Positions 4,034 through 46,656 of a DNA stretch of 47,548 nucleotides are shown here, one piece after another. Position 1 is the stretch's first letter. The number at the start of each line of letters is the position of its first letter. The translations under genes and the position numbers were made by a program. The notes under the pieces are model-generated. The model was not told the DNA's origin. It searched no databases and worked only from the letters and a program-made list of their open reading frames with translations. The DNA comes from a phage. The stretch lies in NCBI GenBank assembly GCA_012145005.1, contig GCA_012145005.1_3029.1, one strand, 5' to 3'.

Positions 4034-4359
4034 TGACAGACACGCAGCTTTTCGAATATCTTTATTTTTCGCCAAAAACTATTAAAAATAAATTGGTGAA
4101 TCATTTTGAAATTTTGGCAAATAATAACATTTTGAGCGAATTTTATCCCAAGCAATACAAATTACAAAAAGGCGTATTCAAAGGATGCAGAGTTTTGTGC
4201 ACTGCTCCTAACGCGCAGTTAATGAATAAAATTCCATATTTTACCATGGAATTTATTGATGGACCTTTTAAAGGACTAATCACCCAAAGTTTAATGGCAT
4301 ATGATTCTGAGCCATTTTTAATTAAAGAACAATCTTGGATAAATTTATTTTCTAATTGA
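4030..4359 (+). CDS. hypothetical protein
   Basis: ORF track 3979..4359 trimmed to ATG 4030, overlapping stop of previous gene. Confidence 0.45.
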   Translation: MMTDTQLFEYLYFSPKTIKNKLVNHFEILANNNILSEFYPKQYKLQKGVFKGCRVLCTAPNAQLMNKIPYFTMEFIDGPFKGLITQSLMAYDSEPFLIKEQSWINLFSN

Positions 4360-4365
4360 GGTTAT

Positions 4366-4728
4366 ATGAAAGCATATCAAATTCTTGAAGGCACGCATAA
4401 AGGTACTATTTATTTTGAAGATGGTATTCAAGCACGAATTATTGTCTCTAAAACCTTTAAAGAGGACTCTTTTGTAGACCCGGAAATTTTCTACGGTTTG
4501 CATGCCCGTGAAATTGAAATTGAACCACAGCCTACGGTTAAAATTGAAGGTGGTCAACACCTGAATGTTAACGTTCTGCGTCGTGAAACTCTGGAAGATG
4601 CAGTTAAGCATCCGGAAAAATATCCGCAGCTGACCATCCGTGTATCAGGTTATGCAGTTCGCTTTAACTCTCTGACTCCGGAACAGCAGCGCGACGTTAT
4701 CGCTCGTACCTTCACCGAGAGTTTGTAA
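4366..4728 (+). CDS. autonomous glycyl radical cofactor (GrcA/YfiD-like; T4 Y06I-like)
   Basis: C-terminal [25 protein letters not shown] glycyl-radical motif; C-terminal half as recalled is near-identical to E. coli GrcA and uses E. coli-like codons. Confidence 0.88.
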
Positions 4729-11915: not shown

Positions 11916-12377
11916 ATGATTATTAATGAAAGCTCTTGGCACTATAAATTATTCAAAATGTTTAATGATGAATGGAAACGACCTAAGACACTATGCGCGT
12001 ATTTTTGGTCTATTGTTATTCCTACATTTTTCGTTTCTTTTTTCGGATGTACTATACTCGCAGGTCTAACTATCATCTGCGCAGAAATCATGCAGAAATG
12101 GCTTATTTTTGGTAGTTTATGGACTCTTATTCCATCAGCATTTATACTTGCCATTTTGCTTGTTTTACTTATTATCGGTTCATTTGTTATTCCTGCACAA
12201 TTGCATGAAAAATATAAAGATTATAAATGGAAAAAGGATTATGCTTTACATGTAGAAAATATTGATAGGGCGTATAAAGGTTTACCTCCTATTCAACCAA
12301 AGAAATCTATTATCGTCGAATTTTTAAAAGCGCGTAAAGCTAAAGTATGTCCTGTTATTGAATATAAGGCTGAATGA
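11916..12377 (+). CDS. two-TM membrane protein
   Basis: two long hydrophobic segments in ORF track protein. Confidence 0.45.
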   Translation: MIINESSWHYKLFKMFNDEWKRPKTLCAYFWSIVIPTFFVSFFGCTILAGLTIICAEIMQKWLIFGSLWTLIPSAFILAILLVLLIIGSFVIPAQLHEKYKDYKWKKDYALHVENIDRAYKGLPPIQPKKSIIVEFLKARKAKVCPVIEYKAE

Positions 12378-26203: not shown

Positions 26204-26278
26204 TCTCACATTCTGTATATTACCATTCTAAGCTATCGTTCCCTTCTTATCATTCCCTAAAATAATTTTCACAAAGTT

Positions 26279-26308
26279 GTTTACAACAAGTTCAAACCGT
26301 GGTATTAT
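26279..26308 (+). promoter_or_regulatory. T4-type early promoter
   Basis: GTTTAC, 17 bp, TATTAT. Confidence 0.6.
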
Positions 26309-26338
26309 TAACATATGAATTGCCTTTGAGGATTTGAT

Positions 26339-26521
26339 ATGGTTGTGGTTGATAAAGAAATTAAAAAGGGACAATATTATTTTATTAATGGTAATGTTGT
26401 TCGTGTTACTTACGTAAATGGTTATGATGTTTATTATCTTATACTTAAGTTACATAAACACATGATTTGTGATCGTGCTGTATTTAGTTCAGTTGCTAAG
26501 GAAATTAAACTCCATGGGTAA
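26339..26521 (+). CDS. small hypothetical protein
   Basis: ORF track. Confidence 0.4.
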   Translation: MVVVDKEIKKGQYYFINGNVVRVTYVNGYDVYYLILKLHKHMICDRAVFSSVAKEIKLHG

Positions 26522-26807
26522 AACGTATCGTCGTAAAGACTTGAAAGTTCGTGATTATGACTATTTCGGAAAGCGTAAAGCTCCTGATGGGATAAGTCAT
26601 AAAGATATGGTTGAAAACATTTTTCGTTCAGATAAATGGCGACGTATGCGAGGTGTTGATTCAGAGGTTAAGAATGAATTGAATCGTCAACTGCGTGGTG
26701 AAGTAAGAAAGTTGAAAAAATCAGTTTACATTGACGATGATTTTGATTATAATACATCTCAACGAGTTGCTAAGCGCAAATCAAACGAATGTTATCGTTA
26801 CAGCTGA
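26514..26807 (+). CDS. hypothetical basic protein
   Basis: track ORF trimmed to ATG 26514. Confidence 0.4.
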   Translation: MGKTYRRKDLKVRDYDYFGKRKAPDGISHKDMVENIFRSDKWRRMRGVDSEVKNELNRQLRGEVRKLKKSVYIDDDFDYNTSQRVAKRKSNECYRYS

Positions 26808-37518: not shown

Positions 37519-40215
37519 ATGAAAGAATTTTATATCTCTATCGAAACAGTCGGAAATAACATTGTTGAGCGCTATATTGATGAAAACGGAAAGGAACGTA
37601 CTCGTGAAGTAGAATATCTTCCGACTATGTTTAGGCATTGTAAGGAAGAGTCAAAATACAAAGACATTTATGGTAAAAACTGTGCTCCTCAAAAATTTCC
37701 ATCAATGAAAGATGCACGAGACTGGATGAAGCGGATGGAAGACATCGGTCTCGAAGCTCTTGGTATGAACGATTTTAAACTCGCTTATATCAGTGATACA
37801 TATGGTTCAGAAATTGTTTATGACCGAAAATTTGTTCGTGTAGCTAACTGTGACATTGAGGTTACTGGTGATAAATTTCCTGACCCAATGAAAGCAGAAT
37901 ATGAAATTGATGCTATCACTCATTATGATTCAATTGACGATCGTTTTTACGTCTTTGATTTGTTGAATTCAATGTACGGTTCAGTATCAAAATGGGATGC
38001 AAAGTTAGCTGCTAAGCTTGACTGTGAAGGTGGTGATGAAGTTCCTCAAGAAATTCTTGACCGAGTAATTTATATGCCATTTGATAATGAGCGTGATATG
38101 CTCATGGAATATATTAATCTCTGGGAACAAAAACGACCTGCTATTTTTACTGGTTGGAATATTGAGGGATTTGACGTTCCGTATATCATGAATCGCGTTA
38201 AAATGGTTCTCGGTGAACGCAGTATGAAACGCTTCTCTCCAATCGGTCGAGTAAAATCTAAACTAATTCAAAATATGTACGGTAGCAAAGAAATTTATTC
38301 TATTGATGGCGTATCTATTCTTGATTATTTAGATTTGTACAAGAAATTCGCATTTACTAATTTGCCATCGTTCTCTTTGGAATCAGTTGCTCAACATGAA
38401 ACCAAAAAAGGTAAATTGCCGTACGATGGTCCTATTAATAAACTTCGTGAGACTAATCATCAACGATACATTAGTTATAACATCATTGACGTAGAATCAG
38501 TTCAAGCAATTGATAAAATTCGTGGGTTTATCGATCTAGTTTTAAGTATGTCTTATTACGCTAAAATGCCTTTTTCTGGTGTAATGAGTCCTATTAAAAC
38601 TTGGGATGCTATTATTTTTAACTCATTGAAAGGTGAACATAAGGTTATTCCTCAACAAGGTTCGCACGTTAAACAGAGTTTTCCAGGTGCATTTGTGTTT
38701 GAACCTAAACCGATTGCTCGTCGATACATTATGAGTTTTGACTTGACGTCTCTGTATCCTAGCATTATTCGTCAGGTTAACATCAGTCCTGAAACTATTC
38801 GTGGGCAGTTTAAAGTTCATCCAATTCATGAATATATCGCAGGAACAGCTCCTAAGCCAAGTGATGAATATTCTTGCTCTCCGAATGGATGGATGTATGA
38901 TAAGCATCAAGAAGGTATCATTCCAAAGGAAATCGCTAAAGTATTTTTCCAGCGTAAAGATTGGAAAAAGAAAATGTTCGCTGAAGAAATGAATGCCGAA
39001 GCTATTAAAAAGATTATTATGAAAGGCGCAGGGTCTTGCTCAACTAAACCAGAAGTTGAACGATATGTTAAGTTCAGTGATGATTTCTTAAACGAATTAT
39101 CGAATTACACCGAATCTGTTCTTAATAGTCTGATCGAAGAATGTGAAAAAGCTGCTACGCTTGCTAACACAAATCAGCTGAACCGTAAAATTCTTATTAA
39201 CAGTCTTTATGGTGCTCTTGGTAATATTCATTTCCGCTACTATGATTTGCGAAATGCTACTGCTATCACAATTTTCGGTCAAGTCGGTATTCAGTGGATT
39301 GCTCGCAAAATTAATGAATATCTAAATAAAGTGTGTGGAACTAATGGTGAAGATTTCATCGCAGCAGGTGATACTGATTCGGTATATGTTTGTGTAGATA
39401 AAGTTATTGAAAAAGTAGGTCTTGATCGCTTTAAAGAACAAAATGATTTAGTTGAATTCATGAATCAGTTTGGTAAGAAAAAGATGGAACCTATGATTGA
39501 TGTTGCATATCGTGAGTTATGTGATTATATGAATAACCGCGAGCATCTGATGCATATGGACCGTGAAGCTATTTCTTGCCCTCCACTTGGTTCAAAGGGT
39601 GTCGGTGGATTTTGGAAAGCTAAAAAACGTTATGCTCTGAACGTTTATGATATGGAAGATAAGCGATTTGCTGAACCGCATTTAAAAATCATGGGTATGG
39701 AAACTCAGCAGAGTTCAACACCAAAAGCAGTACAAGAAGCTCTCGAAGAAAGTATTCGTCGTATTCTTCAAGAAGGCGAAGAGTCTGTCCAAGAATACTA
39801 CAAGAACTTTGAGAAAGAATATCGTCAACTTGACTATAAAGTTATTGCTGAAGTAAAAACTGCGAACGATATAGCGAAATATGATGATAAAGGTTGGCCA
39901 GGATTTAAATGCCCATTCCATATTCGTGGTGTACTAACTTATCGTCGAGCTGTTAACGGTTTAGGTGTAGCTCCAATTTTGGATGGAAATAAGGTAATGG
40001 TTCTTCCATTACGTGAAGGAAATCCATTTGGTGACAAGTGCATTGCTTGGCCATCGGGTACGGAACTTCCAAAAGAAATTCGTTCTGACGTACTGTCTTG
40101 GATTGACTACTCAACTTTGTTCCAAAAATCGTTTGTTAAACCGCTTGCGGGCATGTGTGAATCGGCAGGTATGGACTATGAGGAAAAAGCTTCGTTAGAC
40201 TTCCTGTTTGGCTGA
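37519..40215 (+). CDS. 43: DNA polymerase gp43 (family B)
   Basis: 898 aa; exonuclease and polymerase motifs (DxE, YGDTDS); matches T4 gp43 length. Confidence 0.96.
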   Translation: MKEFYISIETVGNNIVERYIDENGKERTREVEYLPTMFRHCKEESKYKDIYGKNCAPQKFPSMKDARDWMKRMEDIGLEALGMNDFKLAYISDTYGSEIVYDRKFVRVANCDIEVTGDKFPDPMKAEYEIDAITHYDSIDDRFYVFDLLNSMYGSVSKWDAKLAAKLDCEGGDEVPQEILDRVIYMPFDNERDMLMEYINLWEQKRPAIFTGWNIEGFDVPYIMNRVKMVLGERSMKRFSPIGRVKSKLIQNMYGSKEIYSIDGVSILDYLDLYKKFAFTNLPSFSLESVAQHETKKGKLPYDGPINKLRETNHQRYISYNIIDVESVQAIDKIRGFIDLVLSMSYYAKMPFSGVMSPIKTWDAIIFNSLKGEHKVIPQQGSHVKQSFPGAFVFEPKPIARRYIMSFDLTSLYPSIIRQVNISPETIRGQFKVHPIHEYIAGTAPKPSDEYSCSPNGWMYDKHQEGIIPKEIAKVFFQRKDWKKKMFAEEMNAEAIKKIIMKGAGSCSTKPEVERYVKFSDDFLNELSNYTESVLNSLIEECEKAATLANTNQLNRKILINSLYGALGNIHFRYYDLRNATAITIFGQVGIQWIARKINEYLNKVCGTNGEDFIAAGDTDSVYVCVDKVIEKVGLDRFKEQNDLVEFMNQFGKKKMEPMIDVAYRELCDYMNNREHLMHMDREAISCPPLGSKGVGGFWKAKKRYALNVYDMEDKRFAEPHLKIMGMETQQSSTPKAVQEALEESIRRILQEGEESVQEYYKNFEKEYRQLDYKVIAEVKTANDIAKYDDKGWPGFKCPFHIRGVLTYRRAVNGLGVAPILDGNKVMVLPLREGNPFGDKCIAWPSGTELPKEIRSDVLSWIDYSTLFQKSFVKPLAGMCESAGMDYEEKASLDFLFG

Positions 40216-40227
40216 TAGAATAAATCT

Positions 40228-40249
40228 AGGGACCTCCGGGTCCCTTTTT
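40228..40249 (+). terminator. stem-loop with T-tract
   Basis: AGGGACC-TCCG-GGTCCCT then TTTTT. Confidence 0.7.
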
Positions 40250-40332
40250 CATACAAGTAATATAAATCTATACTTAGGAAAAATAGATGATTCTGGACCT
40301 TTGGAATTCATTAAAAAATTTTTCACAAAACG

Positions 40333-40362
40333 GTTTACAAGACTGTTCCTCTGTGGTACTAT
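40333..40362 (+). promoter_or_regulatory. T4-type early promoter
   Basis: GTTTAC, 17 bp, TACTAT. Confidence 0.65.
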
Positions 40363-40396
40363 TACCCTATCAACCAATACAAATTTGGAGAATGAA

Positions 40397-40777
40397 ATGA
40401 AAATCGCTATTTTGGTTATTGCATTGGGTCTTACTGGTTGTGTAGCTCAAGGACCGGTAGTAAATCAATCTGATGTAGGAAAAATTGTAAACTGTTCAAG
40501 CAAATTTTATAATCCTAACGTCAAGTGTTATAAAGAAGCTCCAAAACAGACAGTAGAACAAATGCAGGCGAATTTTGACGAAGCTATTCGTCCAGATGAA
40601 TCTGCTCAAGCATATCGTAATTCAGATGTAATTACACGCGAAGAAAAAATTGAAAACTACTGCGCCGAACTTTGGGCTAATTGGGCTAATAATTACCAAT
40701 GGCGAACTGGTAAAAATGCTCCAATGGAGTATGTAGTGAATTCTTATAATTCATGTGTAAAAAATTTGACTAAGTGA
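40397..40777 (+). CDS. predicted lipoprotein (periplasmic)
   Basis: MKIAILVIALGLTGC lipobox signal peptide; track ORF 40208 trimmed because the extension spans terminator and promoter. Confidence 0.55.
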   Translation: MKIAILVIALGLTGCVAQGPVVNQSDVGKIVNCSSKFYNPNVKCYKEAPKQTVEQMQANFDEAIRPDESAQAYRNSDVITREEKIENYCAELWANWANNYQWRTGKNAPMEYVVNSYNSCVKNLTK

Positions 40778-40784
40778 GGAAAAG

Positions 40785-41036
40785 ATGGAAACTTTAGTAG
40801 CAGGTTCAATTTTTATGGTTTTAGTTTCATGCGTGTTGGCTATTATTATATACATGCTTCCATGGTTCATCGCCTTGATGCGCGGGTCAAAATCGACAGT
40901 AGGAATCTTTTTCACATCTTTACTGTTTAACTGGTCAATTATTGGTTGGTTTATTACATTTATTTGGTCAATTGCGGGTGAAACTAAAAAATCTGTGCAG
41001 CAAAATCAAGTAATTATCATCAGAGAGAAGGAATGA
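40785..41036 (+). CDS. imm: superinfection immunity membrane protein Imm
   Basis: 83 aa, two TM helices, position between 43 and 42 as T4 imm. Confidence 0.75.
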   Translation: METLVAGSIFMVLVSCVLAIIIYMLPWFIALMRGSKSTVGIFFTSLLFNWSIIGWFITFIWSIAGETKKSVQQNQVIIIREKE

Positions 41037-41182
41037 AAAGCAAAATTTTAACAGTATTGCTTTTAATCTTGATGATTATAATAAGTATATACTATAGCGT
41101 AACGGTTCCTTGTATGATTCCAACGCTTATTATAGGGTGGAGTTTATTACTGTTACAAGTTAAATATGAATGTATCAATTGA
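41033..41182 (+). CDS. small hydrophobic membrane peptide (49 aa)
   Basis: ATGA-coupled to imm; MKSKILTVLLLILMIIISIYY. Confidence 0.35.
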   Translation: MKSKILTVLLLILMIIISIYYSVTVPCMIPTLIIGWSLLLLQVKYECIN

Positions 41183-41189
41183 GGTTTAA

Positions 41190-41930
41190 ATGATTAATGA
41201 CTCTTTGACAGTTGAAGAAACTCGTCTTCATTTGGGAATTGCGTTAAAGGAAAAAGATTTCGTAATTGATAAAACTGGCGTTAAAACTATTGAAATTATT
41301 GGCGCATCATTTGTAGCAGATGAACCGTTTATTTTTGGCGCTCTTAATGATGAATACATTCAGCGTGAACTTGAATGGTATAAATCTAAAAGTTTGTTTG
41401 TTAAAGATATTCCGGGCGAAACACCGAAGATTTGGCAACAGGTAGCATCTTCTAAAGGCGAAATTAACTCGAATTATGGTTGGGCCATCTGGTCAGAAGA
41501 TAACTATGCCCAGTATGATATGTGTTTAGCTGAACTTGGTCAAAATCCTGATTCTCGACGTGGTATCATGATTTATACTCGTCCATCCATGCAGTTTGAC
41601 TACAATAAAGATGGTATGTCAGATTTCATGTGTACGAATACAGTACAGTACCTGATTCGTGATAAGAAAGTCAATGCAGTAGTAAGCATGCGTTCAAATG
41701 ACGTGGTCTTCGGATTCCGTAATGATTATGCATGGCAAAAATACGTACTAGATAAATTAGTATCTGATTTGAATGCAGGTGATTCAACTCGTCAGTATAA
41801 AGCAGGTTCCATTATATGGAATGTCGGGAGCCTTCACGTGTATTCCCGTCATTTTTATTTGGTTGACCATTGGTGGAAAACTGGCGAAACTCATATTGCG
41901 AAAAAAGATTATAACGGTGAGTGGAAATGA
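41190..41930 (+). CDS. 42: dCMP hydroxymethylase gp42
   Basis: 246 aa; matches T4 gp42 (thymidylate-synthase-like fold). Confidence 0.93.
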   Translation: MINDSLTVEETRLHLGIALKEKDFVIDKTGVKTIEIIGASFVADEPFIFGALNDEYIQRELEWYKSKSLFVKDIPGETPKIWQQVASSKGEINSNYGWAIWSEDNYAQYDMCLAELGQNPDSRRGIMIYTRPSMQFDYNKDGMSDFMCTNTVQYLIRDKKVNAVVSMRSNDVVFGFRNDYAWQKYVLDKLVSDLNAGDSTRQYKAGSIIWNVGSLHVYSRHFYLVDHWWKTGETHIAKKDYNGEWK

Positions 41931-42769
41931 TTCAATTCGTAATTCCAAGCTATCAACGCGTAGGGGCAGTTTCTGCCCTTGATATGTTTCCGACTGATTA
42001 TGAACCACATATTGTAGTACGTGAACACGAAGAAAAAGCTTATTATGACGCTTATGGGTCTAGAGCTAAAATTATAACTATTCCTGATGATGTTAATGGA
42101 ATTGCTGGTACTCGTAAAGCAATTACTGATATGTATGCAGGTCAACGAATTTGGATGATTGATGATGATACTACTATTCGTATGAGTTCAATGCGAAAGA
42201 AAGATGATCGTCGCTGCGTAGATAAAATTAATCAATTAACCCGTGAACAGTTCTATGAATTGATTCAATACGTTGAAGATGCCATGGATTGCGGGTATTA
42301 TCATGGTCATGCTCGTCTGCCTATTTTTAAAATTACTTCATCTTGGGGTAATTATCGTGAAAATTCATATGGATTCACGAATACATGGTATGACCTTGGA
42401 AAACTTACGACAGAACAAATTGGGTATGGAAAAATTGATTTATGCGAAGATATGTATGCATTTCTCAATTTAATTAATCAAGGTTATCCACATTTGGCCT
42501 TGTTCAAATATCTGGTTGTATCTGGAAAAGCACAGGCTCCCGGCGGATGTAGTTCAATTCGTAGTAATTCAAAACATAATAGAGCTCTTGAGCAAATCAA
42601 TAGAGAGTTTCCAGAGCAAGCTCGTTGGAAAACATCGAATATTGAAAAGAGAAAATCGTTGGGTGAAGAAGATGAGCCATTAAAGGTTCTTCGCATGTGT
42701 GTTTCGCGCAAAGAAAAATCAGAAGCGTTTCATAAGTTTAATGCTATTCATCCAATAGCAGTTGATTAA
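41927..42769 (+). CDS. GT-A fold glycosyltransferase (candidate HMC-DNA glucosyltransferase, not T4 beta-gt)
   Basis: VIPSYQR N-terminal motif and WMIDDDT DxD motif; occupies the beta-gt slot downstream of gene 42 but N-terminus does not match T4 beta-gt as I recall it. Confidence 0.6.
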   Translation: MIQFVIPSYQRVGAVSALDMFPTDYEPHIVVREHEEKAYYDAYGSRAKIITIPDDVNGIAGTRKAITDMYAGQRIWMIDDDTTIRMSSMRKKDDRRCVDKINQLTREQFYELIQYVEDAMDCGYYHGHARLPIFKITSSWGNYRENSYGFTNTWYDLGKLTTEQIGYGKIDLCEDMYAFLNLINQGYPHLALFKYLVVSGKAQAPGGCSSIRSNSKHNRALEQINREFPEQARWKTSNIEKRKSLGEEDEPLKVLRMCVSRKEKSEAFHKFNAIHPIAVD

Positions 42770-46362: not shown

Positions 46363-46656
46363 ATGAAAAAATTTATTTTTGCTACAATTTTTACTTTGGC
46401 TTCTTGTGCTGCTCAGCCTGCTATGGCAGGATATGATAAAGATTTGTGTGAATGGTCTATGACTGCAGATCAGACTGAAGTTGAAACTCAAATTGAAGCG
46501 GATATTATGAATATCGTTGAGCGCGATCGTCCTGAAATGAAAGCTGAAGTGCAAAAACAACTTAAGTCTGGTGGTGTAATGCAGTATAATTATGTTCTGT
46601 ATTGCGATAAAAACTTTAATAACAAAAATATCGTAACCGAAATCACAGGCGAATAA
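46363..46656 (+). CDS. sp: Spackle periplasmic protein
   Basis: 97 aa; signal peptide MKKFIFATIFTLASCAAQPAMA; matches T4 Sp. Confidence 0.88.
   Translation: MKKFIFATIFTLASCAAQPAMAGYDKDLCEWSMTADQTEVETQIEADIMNIVERDRPEMKAEVQKQLKSGGVMQYNYVLYCDKNFNNKNIVTEITGE

What the first reader, a model, noticed from the sequence alone, without database searches (positions are those of the whole stretch)
40397..41182. Envelope-directed cluster around imm: lipoprotein, Imm and a hydrophobic peptide
A lipoprotein (lipobox LTGC) with its own promoter cassette precedes imm, and a 49-aa hydrophobic peptide is translationally coupled after it. All three are envelope-targeted and sit between DNA polymerase and gene 42. 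The lipoprotein is a candidate periplasmic superinfection-exclusion or anti-host factor.
Basis: partly seen in the sequence, partly recalled or inferred. Interest (0 to 1): 0.4.

Follow-up and report, generated by a model that had tools for sequence, protein, structure and literature searches.

The report
T4-type imm.1–imm–small-peptide envelope gene cluster
This is the already catalogued imm.1–imm region of a T4-like phage: a predicted lipoprotein of unknown function, the known superinfection-immunity membrane protein, and a tiny conserved membrane peptide that the T4 reference genome does not annotate.

Summary
The window is a Tequatrovirus (T4-like) genome. After DNA polymerase gene 43 come a terminator hairpin and an early-type promoter, then three genes. 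imm.1 (40397-40777) encodes a 126-aa DUF5481 protein. imm (40785-41036) matches PF14373. A 49-aa ORF (41033-41182) starts on an ATGA overlap with the imm stop. Gene 42 follows.

Imm.1 meets the lipoprotein signal rule (LTGC, Cys15). The lipobox is kept in 16 of 17 homologue clusters and in four more genera. No member has Asp at +2, and one Cys pair is invariant. This points to an outer-membrane-anchored periplasmic protein. In T4 it is made early and is dispensable in the laboratory.

The 49-aa ORF is a real gene. It is conserved in six genera, is under purifying selection and is always coupled to the upstream gene. AlphaFold predicts two helices. T4 reference records do not annotate it.

Function is unproven. 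Imm.1-family genes sit next to imm in five genera, and in Mosigvirus the pair has moved next to spackle. However, phage PM2 has the lipoprotein and peptide but no imm, and many phages have imm alone. No fold or sequence relative gives a mechanism. An accessory role in exclusion is plausible (about 0.35-0.4). All three genes are already in databases.

The parts
40228..40245 (+). Intrinsic-terminator-like hairpin (AGGGACC-TCCG-GGTCCCT followed by TTTTT) just after the gene 43 stop codon.
   Evidence: It is conserved in five Tequatrovirus loci.
40334..40362 (+). Early-type sigma-70 promoter: (G)TTTACA, 17-nt spacer, TG-extended TACTAT, preceded by an A/T-rich tract.
   Evidence: Both hexamers are invariant while the spacer and flanks vary in five loci. 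T4 imm.1 is classed as an early transcript.
40387..40390 (+). Shine-Dalgarno GGAG, 6 nt before the imm.1 ATG.
40397..40777 (+). imm.1: 126-aa predicted lipoprotein. Signal peptide 1-14, lipobox LTGC, lipidated Cys15. The mature part is a periplasmic helical domain with an invariant Cys89/Cys120 pair.
   Evidence: PF17578 (DUF5481) at 5.4e-72 and phrog_1754 at 5e-44. Lipobox rule passed. Lipobox conservation. AF2 model. pN/pS 0.03.
40785..41036 (+). imm: 83-aa superinfection-immunity inner-membrane protein with two hydrophobic segments.
   Evidence: PF14373 at 7.6e-16 and phrog_1039 at 1.6e-31. It is annotated imm in T4 and hundreds of records. Hydropathy profile.
41033..41182 (+). 49-aa two-helix hydrophobic peptide (called '42.1' in some records). 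Its start overlaps the imm stop (ATGA), and its stop lies 7 nt before the gene 42 ATG.
   Evidence: phrog_3610 at 1.7e-25. Homologues carry the precomputed Pfam accession PF26865.1. Conserved in six genera and always overlaps the stop of the upstream gene. pN/pS 0.37 within the genus and 0.44 between genera. AF2 pLDDT 89 with helices 2-24 and 26-47.
41190..41930 (+). Gene 42 (dCMP hydroxymethylase), the downstream boundary of the cluster.
   Evidence: PF00303 and phrog_160. Annotated as gene 42 in relatives.
46363..46656 (+). sp (spackle), the other known T4 exclusion gene, 5.2 kb downstream in this window. In Mosigvirus it lies directly after imm.1-imm.
   Evidence: ORF in the window. Its homologue is annotated Sp in JS09. 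69% identical to the JS09 Sp.

Best explanation
The region is the imm.1-imm-'42.1' early gene cluster of a T4-like (Tequatrovirus) phage.

Transcription most likely starts at an early promoter placed after the gene 43 terminator. It produces three envelope-targeted proteins within the first minutes of infection.

1. Imm.1. This is inferred to be exported by Sec, lipidated at Cys15 and cleaved by signal peptidase II. Residue +2 is Val and is never Asp in the family, so it should be sorted by Lol to the inner leaflet of the outer membrane. A small helical domain braced by a Cys89-Cys120 disulfide would hang in the periplasm on a conserved tether (G-x-V-V-x-x-S-D/E-V/I-G-K).

2. Imm. This is the known inner-membrane protein that prevents superinfecting T-even phages from delivering DNA into the cytoplasm.

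3. The 49-aa peptide. It is translated by termination-reinitiation at the imm stop codon. It inserts as a two-helix hairpin in the inner membrane, with both ends probably cytoplasmic.

My preferred function for Imm.1 is an accessory, non-essential envelope factor in the infected cell's defence against secondary adsorption (exclusion, or resistance to lysis from without). It would act on the outer-membrane and periplasmic side. It would complement Imm at the inner membrane and Spackle in the periplasm. Its target would be a conserved component, not a variable receptor.

What is shown: gene identity, family membership, the conserved lipobox, conserved coupling, purifying selection, early expression in T4 and dispensability in the laboratory.

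What is inferred: lipidation, outer-membrane sorting, the disulfide, the hairpin topology and the exclusion role.
For: - Identity: the region is 98.7% identical to phage ECp13 and more than 90% identical to about 500 Tequatrovirus records.
- Lipoprotein signal: the rule is passed and is rare in the window. The lipobox is kept in 16 of 17 clusters that share only 18-44% identity. It is also kept in the JD18, IME523, PM2 and Bp7 homologues. phrog_1754 unites all of these forms. No member has Asp at +2.
- Periplasmic location: the one member without the lipobox Cys has an ordinary AHA|S signal peptidase I site. So the family is periplasmic either way. Cys120 is invariant. Cys89 is invariant among six representative members, and in the P0017/P0018 pair the corresponding Cys is offset by three alignment columns. 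The C-terminal helical hairpin has pLDDT of about 90.
- Selection: pN/pS is 0.03, lower than for gene 42 at 0.11.
- Expression: T4 Imm.1 is classed early-RNA/early-protein.
- Accessory role: CRISPRi-ART knock-down of T4 imm.1 is 'Not Fit'.
- Link to exclusion: Imm.1-family genes are adjacent or next-but-one to imm in Tequatrovirus, Mosigvirus, Jiaodavirus, Gaprivervirus and Dhakavirus, in two gene orders. In Mosigvirus the imm.1-imm pair sits at a different locus, directly upstream of sp.
- Conserved target: all 502 Tequatrovirus-type records carry Imm.1 at 95% identity or more, and 370 at 99% or more. By established knowledge, T-even phages use different receptors.
- Peptide.
Against: - No experiment addresses Imm.1 function. 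In two literature searches every listed match to 'imm.1' was an abbreviated journal citation, not the gene, and a search for DUF5481 returned nothing.
- From memory of Lu and Henning 1989 (the paper is not held in the library), plasmid-borne imm alone excludes T4. So Imm does not need Imm.1.
- Phage PM2 has an Imm.1-family lipoprotein and the peptide, but no imm was detected in its complete genome.
- Kanagawavirus IME523 has the lipoprotein separated from the peptide by a sugar isomerase, with no imm nearby.
- Imm occurs alone in many phages, including Acinetobacter phages and roughly 45 kb genomes.
- The adjacency could partly reflect shared residence in the plastic region downstream of gene 43.
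- Cys15 is at the lower limit of the position range allowed by the lipoprotein rule.
Confidence: 0.4

Rival explanations
1. Imm.1 is an envelope-directed factor unrelated to exclusion. Examples would be an inhibitor or modulator of a host periplasmic or outer-membrane enzyme or defence, or a stabiliser of the envelope during infection. On this view its position next to imm only reflects the plastic region downstream of gene 43, where small early envelope genes accumulate.
For: - PM2 has the lipoprotein but no imm.
- IME523 and PM2 place the lipoprotein next to gene 43 and sugar-modification genes.
- Some Tequatroviruses insert another small gene with a signal or lipobox-like N-terminus (phrog_4189) in the same slot.
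- Imm occurs alone in many phages.
- Very strong purifying selection fits a conserved host target.
Against: In Mosigvirus the imm.1-imm pair occupies another locus as a unit, directly upstream of sp. This is hard to explain by shared residence alone. No similarity to any known inhibitor family was found.
Confidence: 0.3
2. Imm.1 works like T5 Llp or the Cor proteins. On this view it is an outer-membrane lipoprotein that binds and inactivates the phage's own outer-membrane receptor from the periplasmic side. This would block adsorption or protect progeny from debris.
For: The protein is a predicted outer-membrane lipoprotein that is made early. Lipoprotein-based exclusion is an established strategy, as for T5 Llp (paper listed, PMC9586334, not read here).
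Against: - Imm.1 is 95% identical or more in all 502 Tequatrovirus-type records, which come from phages isolated on many hosts. By established knowledge, T-even receptors differ (OmpC, FadL/OmpF, Tsx, OmpA).
- The gene is not next to a receptor-binding protein gene.
- By established knowledge, T4-infected cells still adsorb secondary phage.
- No sequence or fold match to such proteins was returned.
Confidence: 0.1
3. Imm.1 is not lipidated. Its N-terminal hydrophobic stretch would be an uncleaved membrane anchor or an ordinary signal peptide, as the old annotation 'predicted membrane protein' implies, and the LTGC motif would be incidental.
For: Cys15 is at the lower limit of the rule. Pfam LPAM_1 scores only 11.5 bits against a cut-off of 20. 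One homologue lacks the Cys.
Against: The lipobox Cys is conserved across forms that share only 18-40% identity and across seven genera. A motif conserved that widely is unlikely to be incidental. The h-region is only 9-10 residues, too short for a stable transmembrane anchor.
Confidence: 0.08
4. The 49-aa peptide is not functionally tied to Imm. It would belong with the hydroxymethylcytosine and sugar-modification genes or with gene 42 expression. For example, it could be a coupling ORF that delivers ribosomes to the next gene, or a membrane anchor.
For: - In Mosigvirus, Kanagawavirus and Mosugukvirus the peptide is coupled to a SIS-domain sugar isomerase inside the modification cluster, while imm is elsewhere or absent.
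- Its stop lies 5-8 nt before the next gene's start in four of the seven loci examined, including the window and T4.
- Knock-down at the imm start scores 'Fit' although imm is listed as non-essential. This could reflect a coupling chain into essential gene 42.
Against: The amino-acid sequence itself is conserved, not just the ORF. Y20, P26, M28, W36, Q42 and C47 are invariant. AF2 gives a confident fold. JD18 has imm directly before gene 42 with no peptide.
Confidence: 0.3

Closest known systems
T4 imm.1 (T4p046, UniProt P18057; Pfam DUF5481 / PF17578; phrog_1754)
   Same: It is the orthologue. It is 99.2% identical over 125 aa to T4 Imm.1, 100% identical to the gene in ime09, RB68 and many others, and occupies the same position between 43 and imm.
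   Different: Nothing material differs. T4 has LAGC instead of LTGC and is one residue shorter.
T4 Imm (PF14373, superinfection immunity protein)
   Same: Orthologue, about 94% identical (5 differences in 83 aa) to T4 Imm, with the same length and position.
   Different: None of note. This copy has Cys16 where T4 has Gly. That produces a lipobox-like string but lacks a positive n-region.
Small ORF '42.1' / RB69ORF054c (phrog_3610; Pfam PF26865 precomputed for homologues)
   Same: Same family, 88% identical to the intact but unannotated T4 ORF. It is annotated in VR7, vB_SsoM_113, T2 and others.
   Different: The Tequatrovirus copies are 49 aa with an N-terminal MKSK. Copies in other genera are 45-47 aa.
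T4 Spackle (Sp, gp61.3), periplasmic inhibitor of the gp5 tail lysozyme
   Same: Both are small, early, exported, helical and disulfide-containing periplasmic proteins of T-even phages. The genes are adjacent to the imm.1-imm pair in Mosigvirus.
   Different: There is no homology beyond the signal peptide: hhalign aligns residues 1-19 only. Spackle is not among the listed top 50 Foldseek PDB hits, and no hit is below E=1.
T5 Llp / Cor / TraT-type exclusion lipoproteins
   Same: They share the concept of a phage- or plasmid-encoded outer-membrane lipoprotein acting from the periplasmic face. This comparison is an analogy only.
   Different: No sequence or fold match was found. The gene is not linked to a receptor-binding gene. 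Its sequence does not vary across Tequatrovirus-type records.

Membership tests
Bacterial lipoprotein (signal peptidase II substrate; PROSITE PS51257-type rule) | Lipobox [LVI][ASTVI][GAS]C preceded by an uncharged hydrophobic h-region. | tested here: met
   IAILVIALG-LTGC matches the pattern. Only Imm.1 (from two alternative starts), Sp and two dubious ORFs (one from two alternative starts) match among 981 candidate starts in the window.
Bacterial lipoprotein (signal peptidase II substrate; PROSITE PS51257-type rule) | Cys between positions 15 and 35, and Lys/Arg within the first seven residues. | tested here: met
   Cys15 is at the lower limit. Lys2 is present.
Bacterial lipoprotein (signal peptidase II substrate; PROSITE PS51257-type rule) | The lipobox Cys is conserved among homologues. 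| tested here: met
   16 of 17 clusters keep it, as do the JD18, IME523, PM2 and Bp7 homologues. The exception, P0004, has a signal peptidase I-type site.
Bacterial lipoprotein (signal peptidase II substrate; PROSITE PS51257-type rule) | Actual lipid modification and Lol-dependent outer-membrane sorting. | not testable with these tools
   Only the +2 residue could be read. It is Val, Ala, Gly or Gln and never Asp.
Imm.1 / DUF5481 (PF17578; phrog_1754) | HMM score above the curated cut-off over the full domain. | tested here: met
   239.2 bits against a cut-off of 27, covering profile positions 1-103 of 103. phrog_1754 matches at 5e-44.
Superinfection immunity protein Imm (PF14373) | HMM score above the cut-off, and a small protein with two hydrophobic segments. 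| tested here: met
   58.2 bits against a cut-off of 27.9. Hydropathy profile. About 94% identical to T4 Imm (5 differences in 83 aa).
Superinfection immunity protein Imm (PF14373) | Exclusion of superinfecting T-even phage. | not testable with these tools
   Inferred from orthology to T4 imm. The T4 function is reviewed in PMC6832632 and PMC7677548.
phrog_3610 / Pfam PF26865 small membrane peptide | HMM match over the full length. | tested here: met
   phrog_3610 matches at 1.7e-25 over profile positions 1-47 of 47. All 21 homologue clusters carry the precomputed accession PF26865.1. The local Pfam copy does not hold that model, so the Pfam match itself could not be re-run.
Llp/Cor-type receptor-blocking exclusion lipoprotein | Sequence or fold homology to Llp or Cor. 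| tested here: not met
   No such family was returned at E<=1 in Pfam or at E<=0.1 in PHROGs. BFVD Foldseek returns only Imm.1 orthologues below E=0.001.
Llp/Cor-type receptor-blocking exclusion lipoprotein | The gene is linked to the receptor-binding protein gene and varies with receptor specificity. | tested here: not met
   The gene lies between DNA polymerase and dCMP hydroxymethylase. It is 95% identical or more in all 502 Tequatrovirus-type records.
Spackle-type periplasmic lysozyme inhibitor | Homology of the mature domain to Sp. | tested here: not met
   hhalign aligns only signal-peptide residues 1-19.

The most novel reading that the evidence does not exclude
The Imm.1-family lipoprotein may be a third, so far unrecognised component of T-even superinfection exclusion and resistance to lysis from without. 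It would be anchored in the outer membrane and would intercept a conserved part of the incoming tail tip, or would cooperate with Imm. The unannotated 49-aa hairpin peptide would be a genuine T4 gene that modulates Imm or the inner membrane at the DNA-entry site.
Probability: 0.2. Interest if true: 0.55.

Novelty: already known. Interest (0 to 1): 0.25.

Why it matters
The mechanism of T4 Imm is still poorly understood decades after its discovery. A conserved lipoprotein travels with imm and is under stronger purifying selection than gene 42, so it is an obvious candidate partner that has not been tested. The 49-aa ORF is missing from the T4 reference annotation although it is conserved across six genera, so genome-wide screens built on that annotation never target it. 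Both points are useful for annotation and for experimental design. Neither changes current concepts.

Tried and rejected
- Remote homology for Imm.1. Pfam, NCBIfam and PHROGs scans of the short, long, JD18 and PM2 forms gave only the family itself, plus weak hits that are sub-threshold or confined to the signal peptide.
- Breadth of the Imm.1 family. An exhaustive phmmer search over 1.84 billion representatives found only 6 proteins. The family is therefore narrow and has no bacterial relatives.
- Imm.1 as a Spackle relative. Rejected: only the signal peptides align.
- Imm.1 as an obligate Imm partner. Rejected: PM2 lacks imm.
- Literature. Every listed match to 'imm.1' was an abbreviated journal citation, not the gene. 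A search for 'DUF5481' returned no paper. The Lu and Henning papers (PMC250924, PMC237878) are not held.
- A recalled resemblance between the post-Cys motif (GDVVNASEIGK) and SlyB-type lipoproteins. No family scan supported it, so it was dropped.
- The 37-aa ORF at 40287-40400, which overlaps the promoter. I judged it non-coding because it is poorly conserved and has an indel in T4.
Full report
**What is there.** The window is a Tequatrovirus (T4-like) genome segment. The 1-kb region around the finding is 98.7% identical to Escherichia phage ECp13 and more than 90% identical to about 500 T4-type records.

Reading the sequence gives the following order:
- Gene 43, DNA polymerase, 37519-40215.
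- A GC-rich hairpin followed by a T run at 40228-40245.
- A promoter-like site at 40334-40362: TTTACA, 17 nt, TACTAT with an upstream TG.
- GGAG at 40387-40390.
- A 126-aa ORF at 40397-40777.
- An 83-aa ORF at 40785-41036.
- A 49-aa ORF at 41033-41182, whose ATG overlaps the stop of the 83-aa ORF (GGAATGA).
- Gene 42, dCMP hydroxymethylase, from 41190.

**Identity of the three genes.**
- The 126-aa protein matches Pfam DUF5481 (PF17578) at 5.4e-72 and phrog_1754 at 5e-44.
- The 83-aa protein matches PF14373 (superinfection immunity protein) and phrog_1039.
- The 49-aa protein matches phrog_3610 at 1.7e-25 over the whole profile.

In T4 itself the first two are annotated imm.1 (T4p046) and imm (T4p045). 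The 153-bp 'gap' between imm and gene 42 in NC_000866.4 and AF158101.6 carries no feature. It nevertheless contains the intact 49-aa ORF, which is 88% identical to the one in the window. Other records annotate this ORF as a hypothetical protein or as '42.1'. All 21 homologue clusters found carry a precomputed Pfam accession, PF26865.1. The local Pfam copy does not contain that model. The objects are therefore already catalogued.

**Is Imm.1 a lipoprotein?**
- The N-terminus MKIAILVIALG-LTGC satisfies a PROSITE PS51257-type rule. It has Lys2, an uncharged h-region, a lipobox, and Cys15 at the lower limit of the allowed range.
- Among 981 possible starts of ORFs of 40 aa or more in the window, only Imm.1 (from two alternative starts), Sp and two implausible ORFs (one from two alternative starts) pass the rule.
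- The family is narrow. There are six representatives in 1.84 billion proteins and 18 clusters in the profile search.
- The lipobox Cys is kept in 16 of 17 aligned clusters, which share only 18-44% identity with the query.
- It is also kept in the homologues of Jiaodavirus JD18, Kanagawavirus IME523, Mosugukvirus PM2 and Dhakavirus Bp7. PHROG 1754 independently joins these forms.
- The single exception (P0004) has an ordinary AHA|S signal-peptidase-I site. So the protein is exported there too.
- The residue after the Cys is Val, Ala, Gly or Gln and never Asp. Under the classical +2 rule (established knowledge) this predicts Lol-dependent transfer to the outer membrane.
- Cys120 is invariant. 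Cys89 is invariant among six representative members, and in the P0017/P0018 pair the corresponding Cys is offset by three alignment columns.
- The C-terminal helical hairpin (81-125) is predicted with pLDDT of about 90. I infer that these two Cys form a disulfide, which would fit a periplasmic location.
- The rest of the model is weak (mean pLDDT 65).
- A short motif just after the lipid Cys (G-x-V-V-x-x-S-D/E-V/I-G-K) is shared by the short and long forms.

**Expression and selection.**
- Within nine Tequatrovirus loci, pN/pS is 0.03 for imm.1, 0.07 for imm, 0.37 for the peptide and 0.11 for gene 42. Imm.1 is thus the most constrained of the four.
- In the phage collection, all 502 high-identity records carry Imm.1 at 95% identity or more, and 370 at 99% or more.
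- Both promoter hexamers are invariant in the five loci with the same architecture, while the spacer and flanks vary.
- In T4, the supplementary tables of Wolfram-Schauerte et al. 2022 (PMC9697503) class imm.1 as early at both the RNA and the protein level.
- The CRISPRi-ART screen (PMC11879866) lists its function as unknown and its knock-down as 'Not Fit', with a score of -0.77.
- Imm.1 is therefore made early and is dispensable for single-cycle growth in the laboratory. That is what one expects of an accessory factor.

**The 49-aa peptide is a real gene.**
- tblastn finds it in 766 phage records.
- Intact 45-49-aa ORFs are present in Tequatrovirus, Mosigvirus, Gaprivervirus, Dhakavirus, Kanagawavirus and Mosugukvirus.
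- Y20, P26, M28, W36, Q42 and C47 are invariant.
- Between genera, synonymous sites are near saturation (pS 0.73) while pN is 0.32.
- In all seven loci examined, its ATG overlaps the stop codon of the upstream gene (ATGA six times, TAATG once). This holds whether that gene is imm or a SIS-domain sugar isomerase.
- AlphaFold2 on 21 sequences gives pLDDT 89 with helices 2-24 and 26-47, broken at the invariant Pro26.
- With Lys residues at both ends, I infer a two-helix inner-membrane hairpin with cytoplasmic termini. The topology is not shown.

**Comparative context and what it says about function.** The gene orders downstream of gene 43 differ between genera:
- Tequatrovirus: imm.1-imm-peptide-42.
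- Jiaodavirus JD18: lipoprotein-imm-42, with no peptide.
- Gaprivervirus VR7 and Dhakavirus Bp7: imm-peptide-lipoprotein, where the lipoprotein is a 166-167-aa long form.
- Kanagawavirus IME523 and Mosugukvirus PM2: lipoprotein, SIS isomerase, peptide, nucleotidyltransferase, with no imm nearby.
- Mosigvirus (JS09/RB69 type): the imm.1-imm pair lies elsewhere, between 61.4 and sp and directly upstream of spackle. The peptide stays behind gene 43, coupled to the SIS isomerase.

The Mosigvirus arrangement is the best evidence that imm.1 and imm form a functional pair associated with exclusion.

Two observations argue against an obligatory partnership:
- A six-frame HMM and tblastn scan of the complete PM2 genome (170,286 bp) finds the lipoprotein and the peptide but no Imm.
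- Imm occurs in 1034 records, including Klebsiella, Acinetobacter and roughly 45 kb phage genomes. The short-form lipoprotein query matches 657 records and the long-form query 116.

From memory of Lu and Henning (1989), plasmid-borne imm alone excludes T4. That paper is not in the held library.

**Mechanism.** No sequence or structural neighbour suggests an activity.
- Pfam, NCBIfam and PHROGs return only the family itself, or weak hits that are sub-threshold or confined to the signal peptide.
- Foldseek against PDB has nothing below E=1.
- BFVD returns only orthologues.
- A profile comparison with Spackle aligns only the signal peptides.

The best-supported account is therefore as follows. 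An early promoter drives three envelope proteins. Imm.1 is lipidated and anchored in the inner leaflet of the outer membrane. Imm and the hairpin peptide sit in the inner membrane.

Imm.1 most likely contributes, non-essentially, to the infected cell's handling of secondary adsorption. It would act on a conserved target rather than on a receptor.

A receptor-masking mechanism of the Llp or Cor type is unlikely for three reasons:
- The protein is nearly invariant across Tequatrovirus-type records, while T-even phages use different receptors (established knowledge).
- The gene is not linked to an adhesin gene.
- T4-infected cells still adsorb secondary phage (established knowledge).

I rate the lipoprotein and periplasmic assignment at about 0.85-0.9. 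I rate translation of the peptide as a real protein at about 0.9. I rate the exclusion-related role of Imm.1 at about 0.35-0.4. The main rival, at about 0.3, is an unrelated envelope or anti-host function.

**Novelty and verdict.** The finding is accurate, but it describes known, annotated gene families in a sequence nearly identical to hundreds of database entries. The useful residue is threefold:
- A well-supported lipoprotein assignment for the DUF5481/Imm.1 family, which older annotation calls a 'predicted membrane protein' and RefSeq misnames 'iduronate sulfatase'.
- The gene-neighbourhood evidence linking Imm.1 to imm and sp, together with the PM2 counter-example.
- The absence of the conserved 49-aa ORF from the T4 reference annotation.

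Interest is low to moderate.

Noticed in passing
L002 (T4 NC_000866.4) 4228-4377 minus strand = record 26227-26376; window 41033-41182: The T4 reference records (NC_000866.4 and AF158101.6) annotate nothing in the 153-bp imm-42 interval. The conserved 49-aa ORF is nevertheless intact there. Screens built on that annotation, such as the CRISPRi-ART guide set, therefore do not target it.
   Followed up: yes
window 40397-40777; T4 T4p046 and several RefSeq records: RefSeq names Imm.1 'iduronate sulfatase' in T4, IME339, IME340 and GEP001. No Pfam, NCBIfam or PHROG result supports this, so it looks like a propagated misannotation.
   Followed up: partly
window 46363-46656 (sp); L004 4737-5030: The Spackle signal peptide (MKKFIFATIFTLASC-AAQPAMA|G) contains a lipobox-like LASC with Cys15 that passes the same lipoprotein rule as Imm.1. 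The Mosigvirus Sp has AVSC at the same position, and the PM2 Sp has no Cys there. Published work treats Sp as a soluble 75-aa protein after signal cleavage.
   Followed up: partly
window 41921-42769 (probable true start ATG 41927, overlapping the gene 42 stop): Where T4 has beta-glucosyltransferase, this phage has a 280-282-aa TET-associated glycosyltransferase family protein (PF20691; phrog_842, 'beta-glucosyl-HMC-alpha-glucosyltransferase'). I infer a T2/T6-like rather than T4-like hydroxymethylcytosine glycosylation pattern.
   Followed up: no
L007 about 2345-2602 (also L008-L010): Some Tequatroviruses carry an extra 85-aa gene (phrog_4189, unknown function) between the gene 43 terminator/promoter region and imm.1. 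Its N-terminus is hydrophobic with a lipobox-like LAAC. The slot seems to collect small envelope-targeted genes.
   Followed up: partly
T4 imm (record 26373-26624), CRISPRi-ART supplementary file 15: Knock-down at the imm start scores 'Fit' (1.40, p=0.02), although imm is listed as non-essential in the same study. The overlapping and adjacent starts imm -> 49-aa ORF -> gene 42 suggest a possible translational-coupling chain into essential gene 42.
   Followed up: no
window 40287-40400: A 37-aa ORF spans the early promoter and ends in an ATGA overlap with the imm.1 start. It differs at about a third of its residues and by an indel between this phage and T4, so it is probably not coding.
   Followed up: partly
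L005 3318-5820; L018 2324-4818; L019 3509-6008: In Mosigvirus, Mosugukvirus and Kanagawavirus the small peptide is translationally coupled to a SIS-domain sugar isomerase. It is followed by a roughly 560-aa nucleotidyltransferase-like protein. From recalled knowledge these look like cytosine sugar-modification genes.
   Followed up: no
window 11958-12377: A 139-aa ORF also matches the lipobox-type pattern (FFGC at residue 31). However, it has a charged, atypical N-terminus and looks more like a polytopic membrane protein.
   Followed up: no
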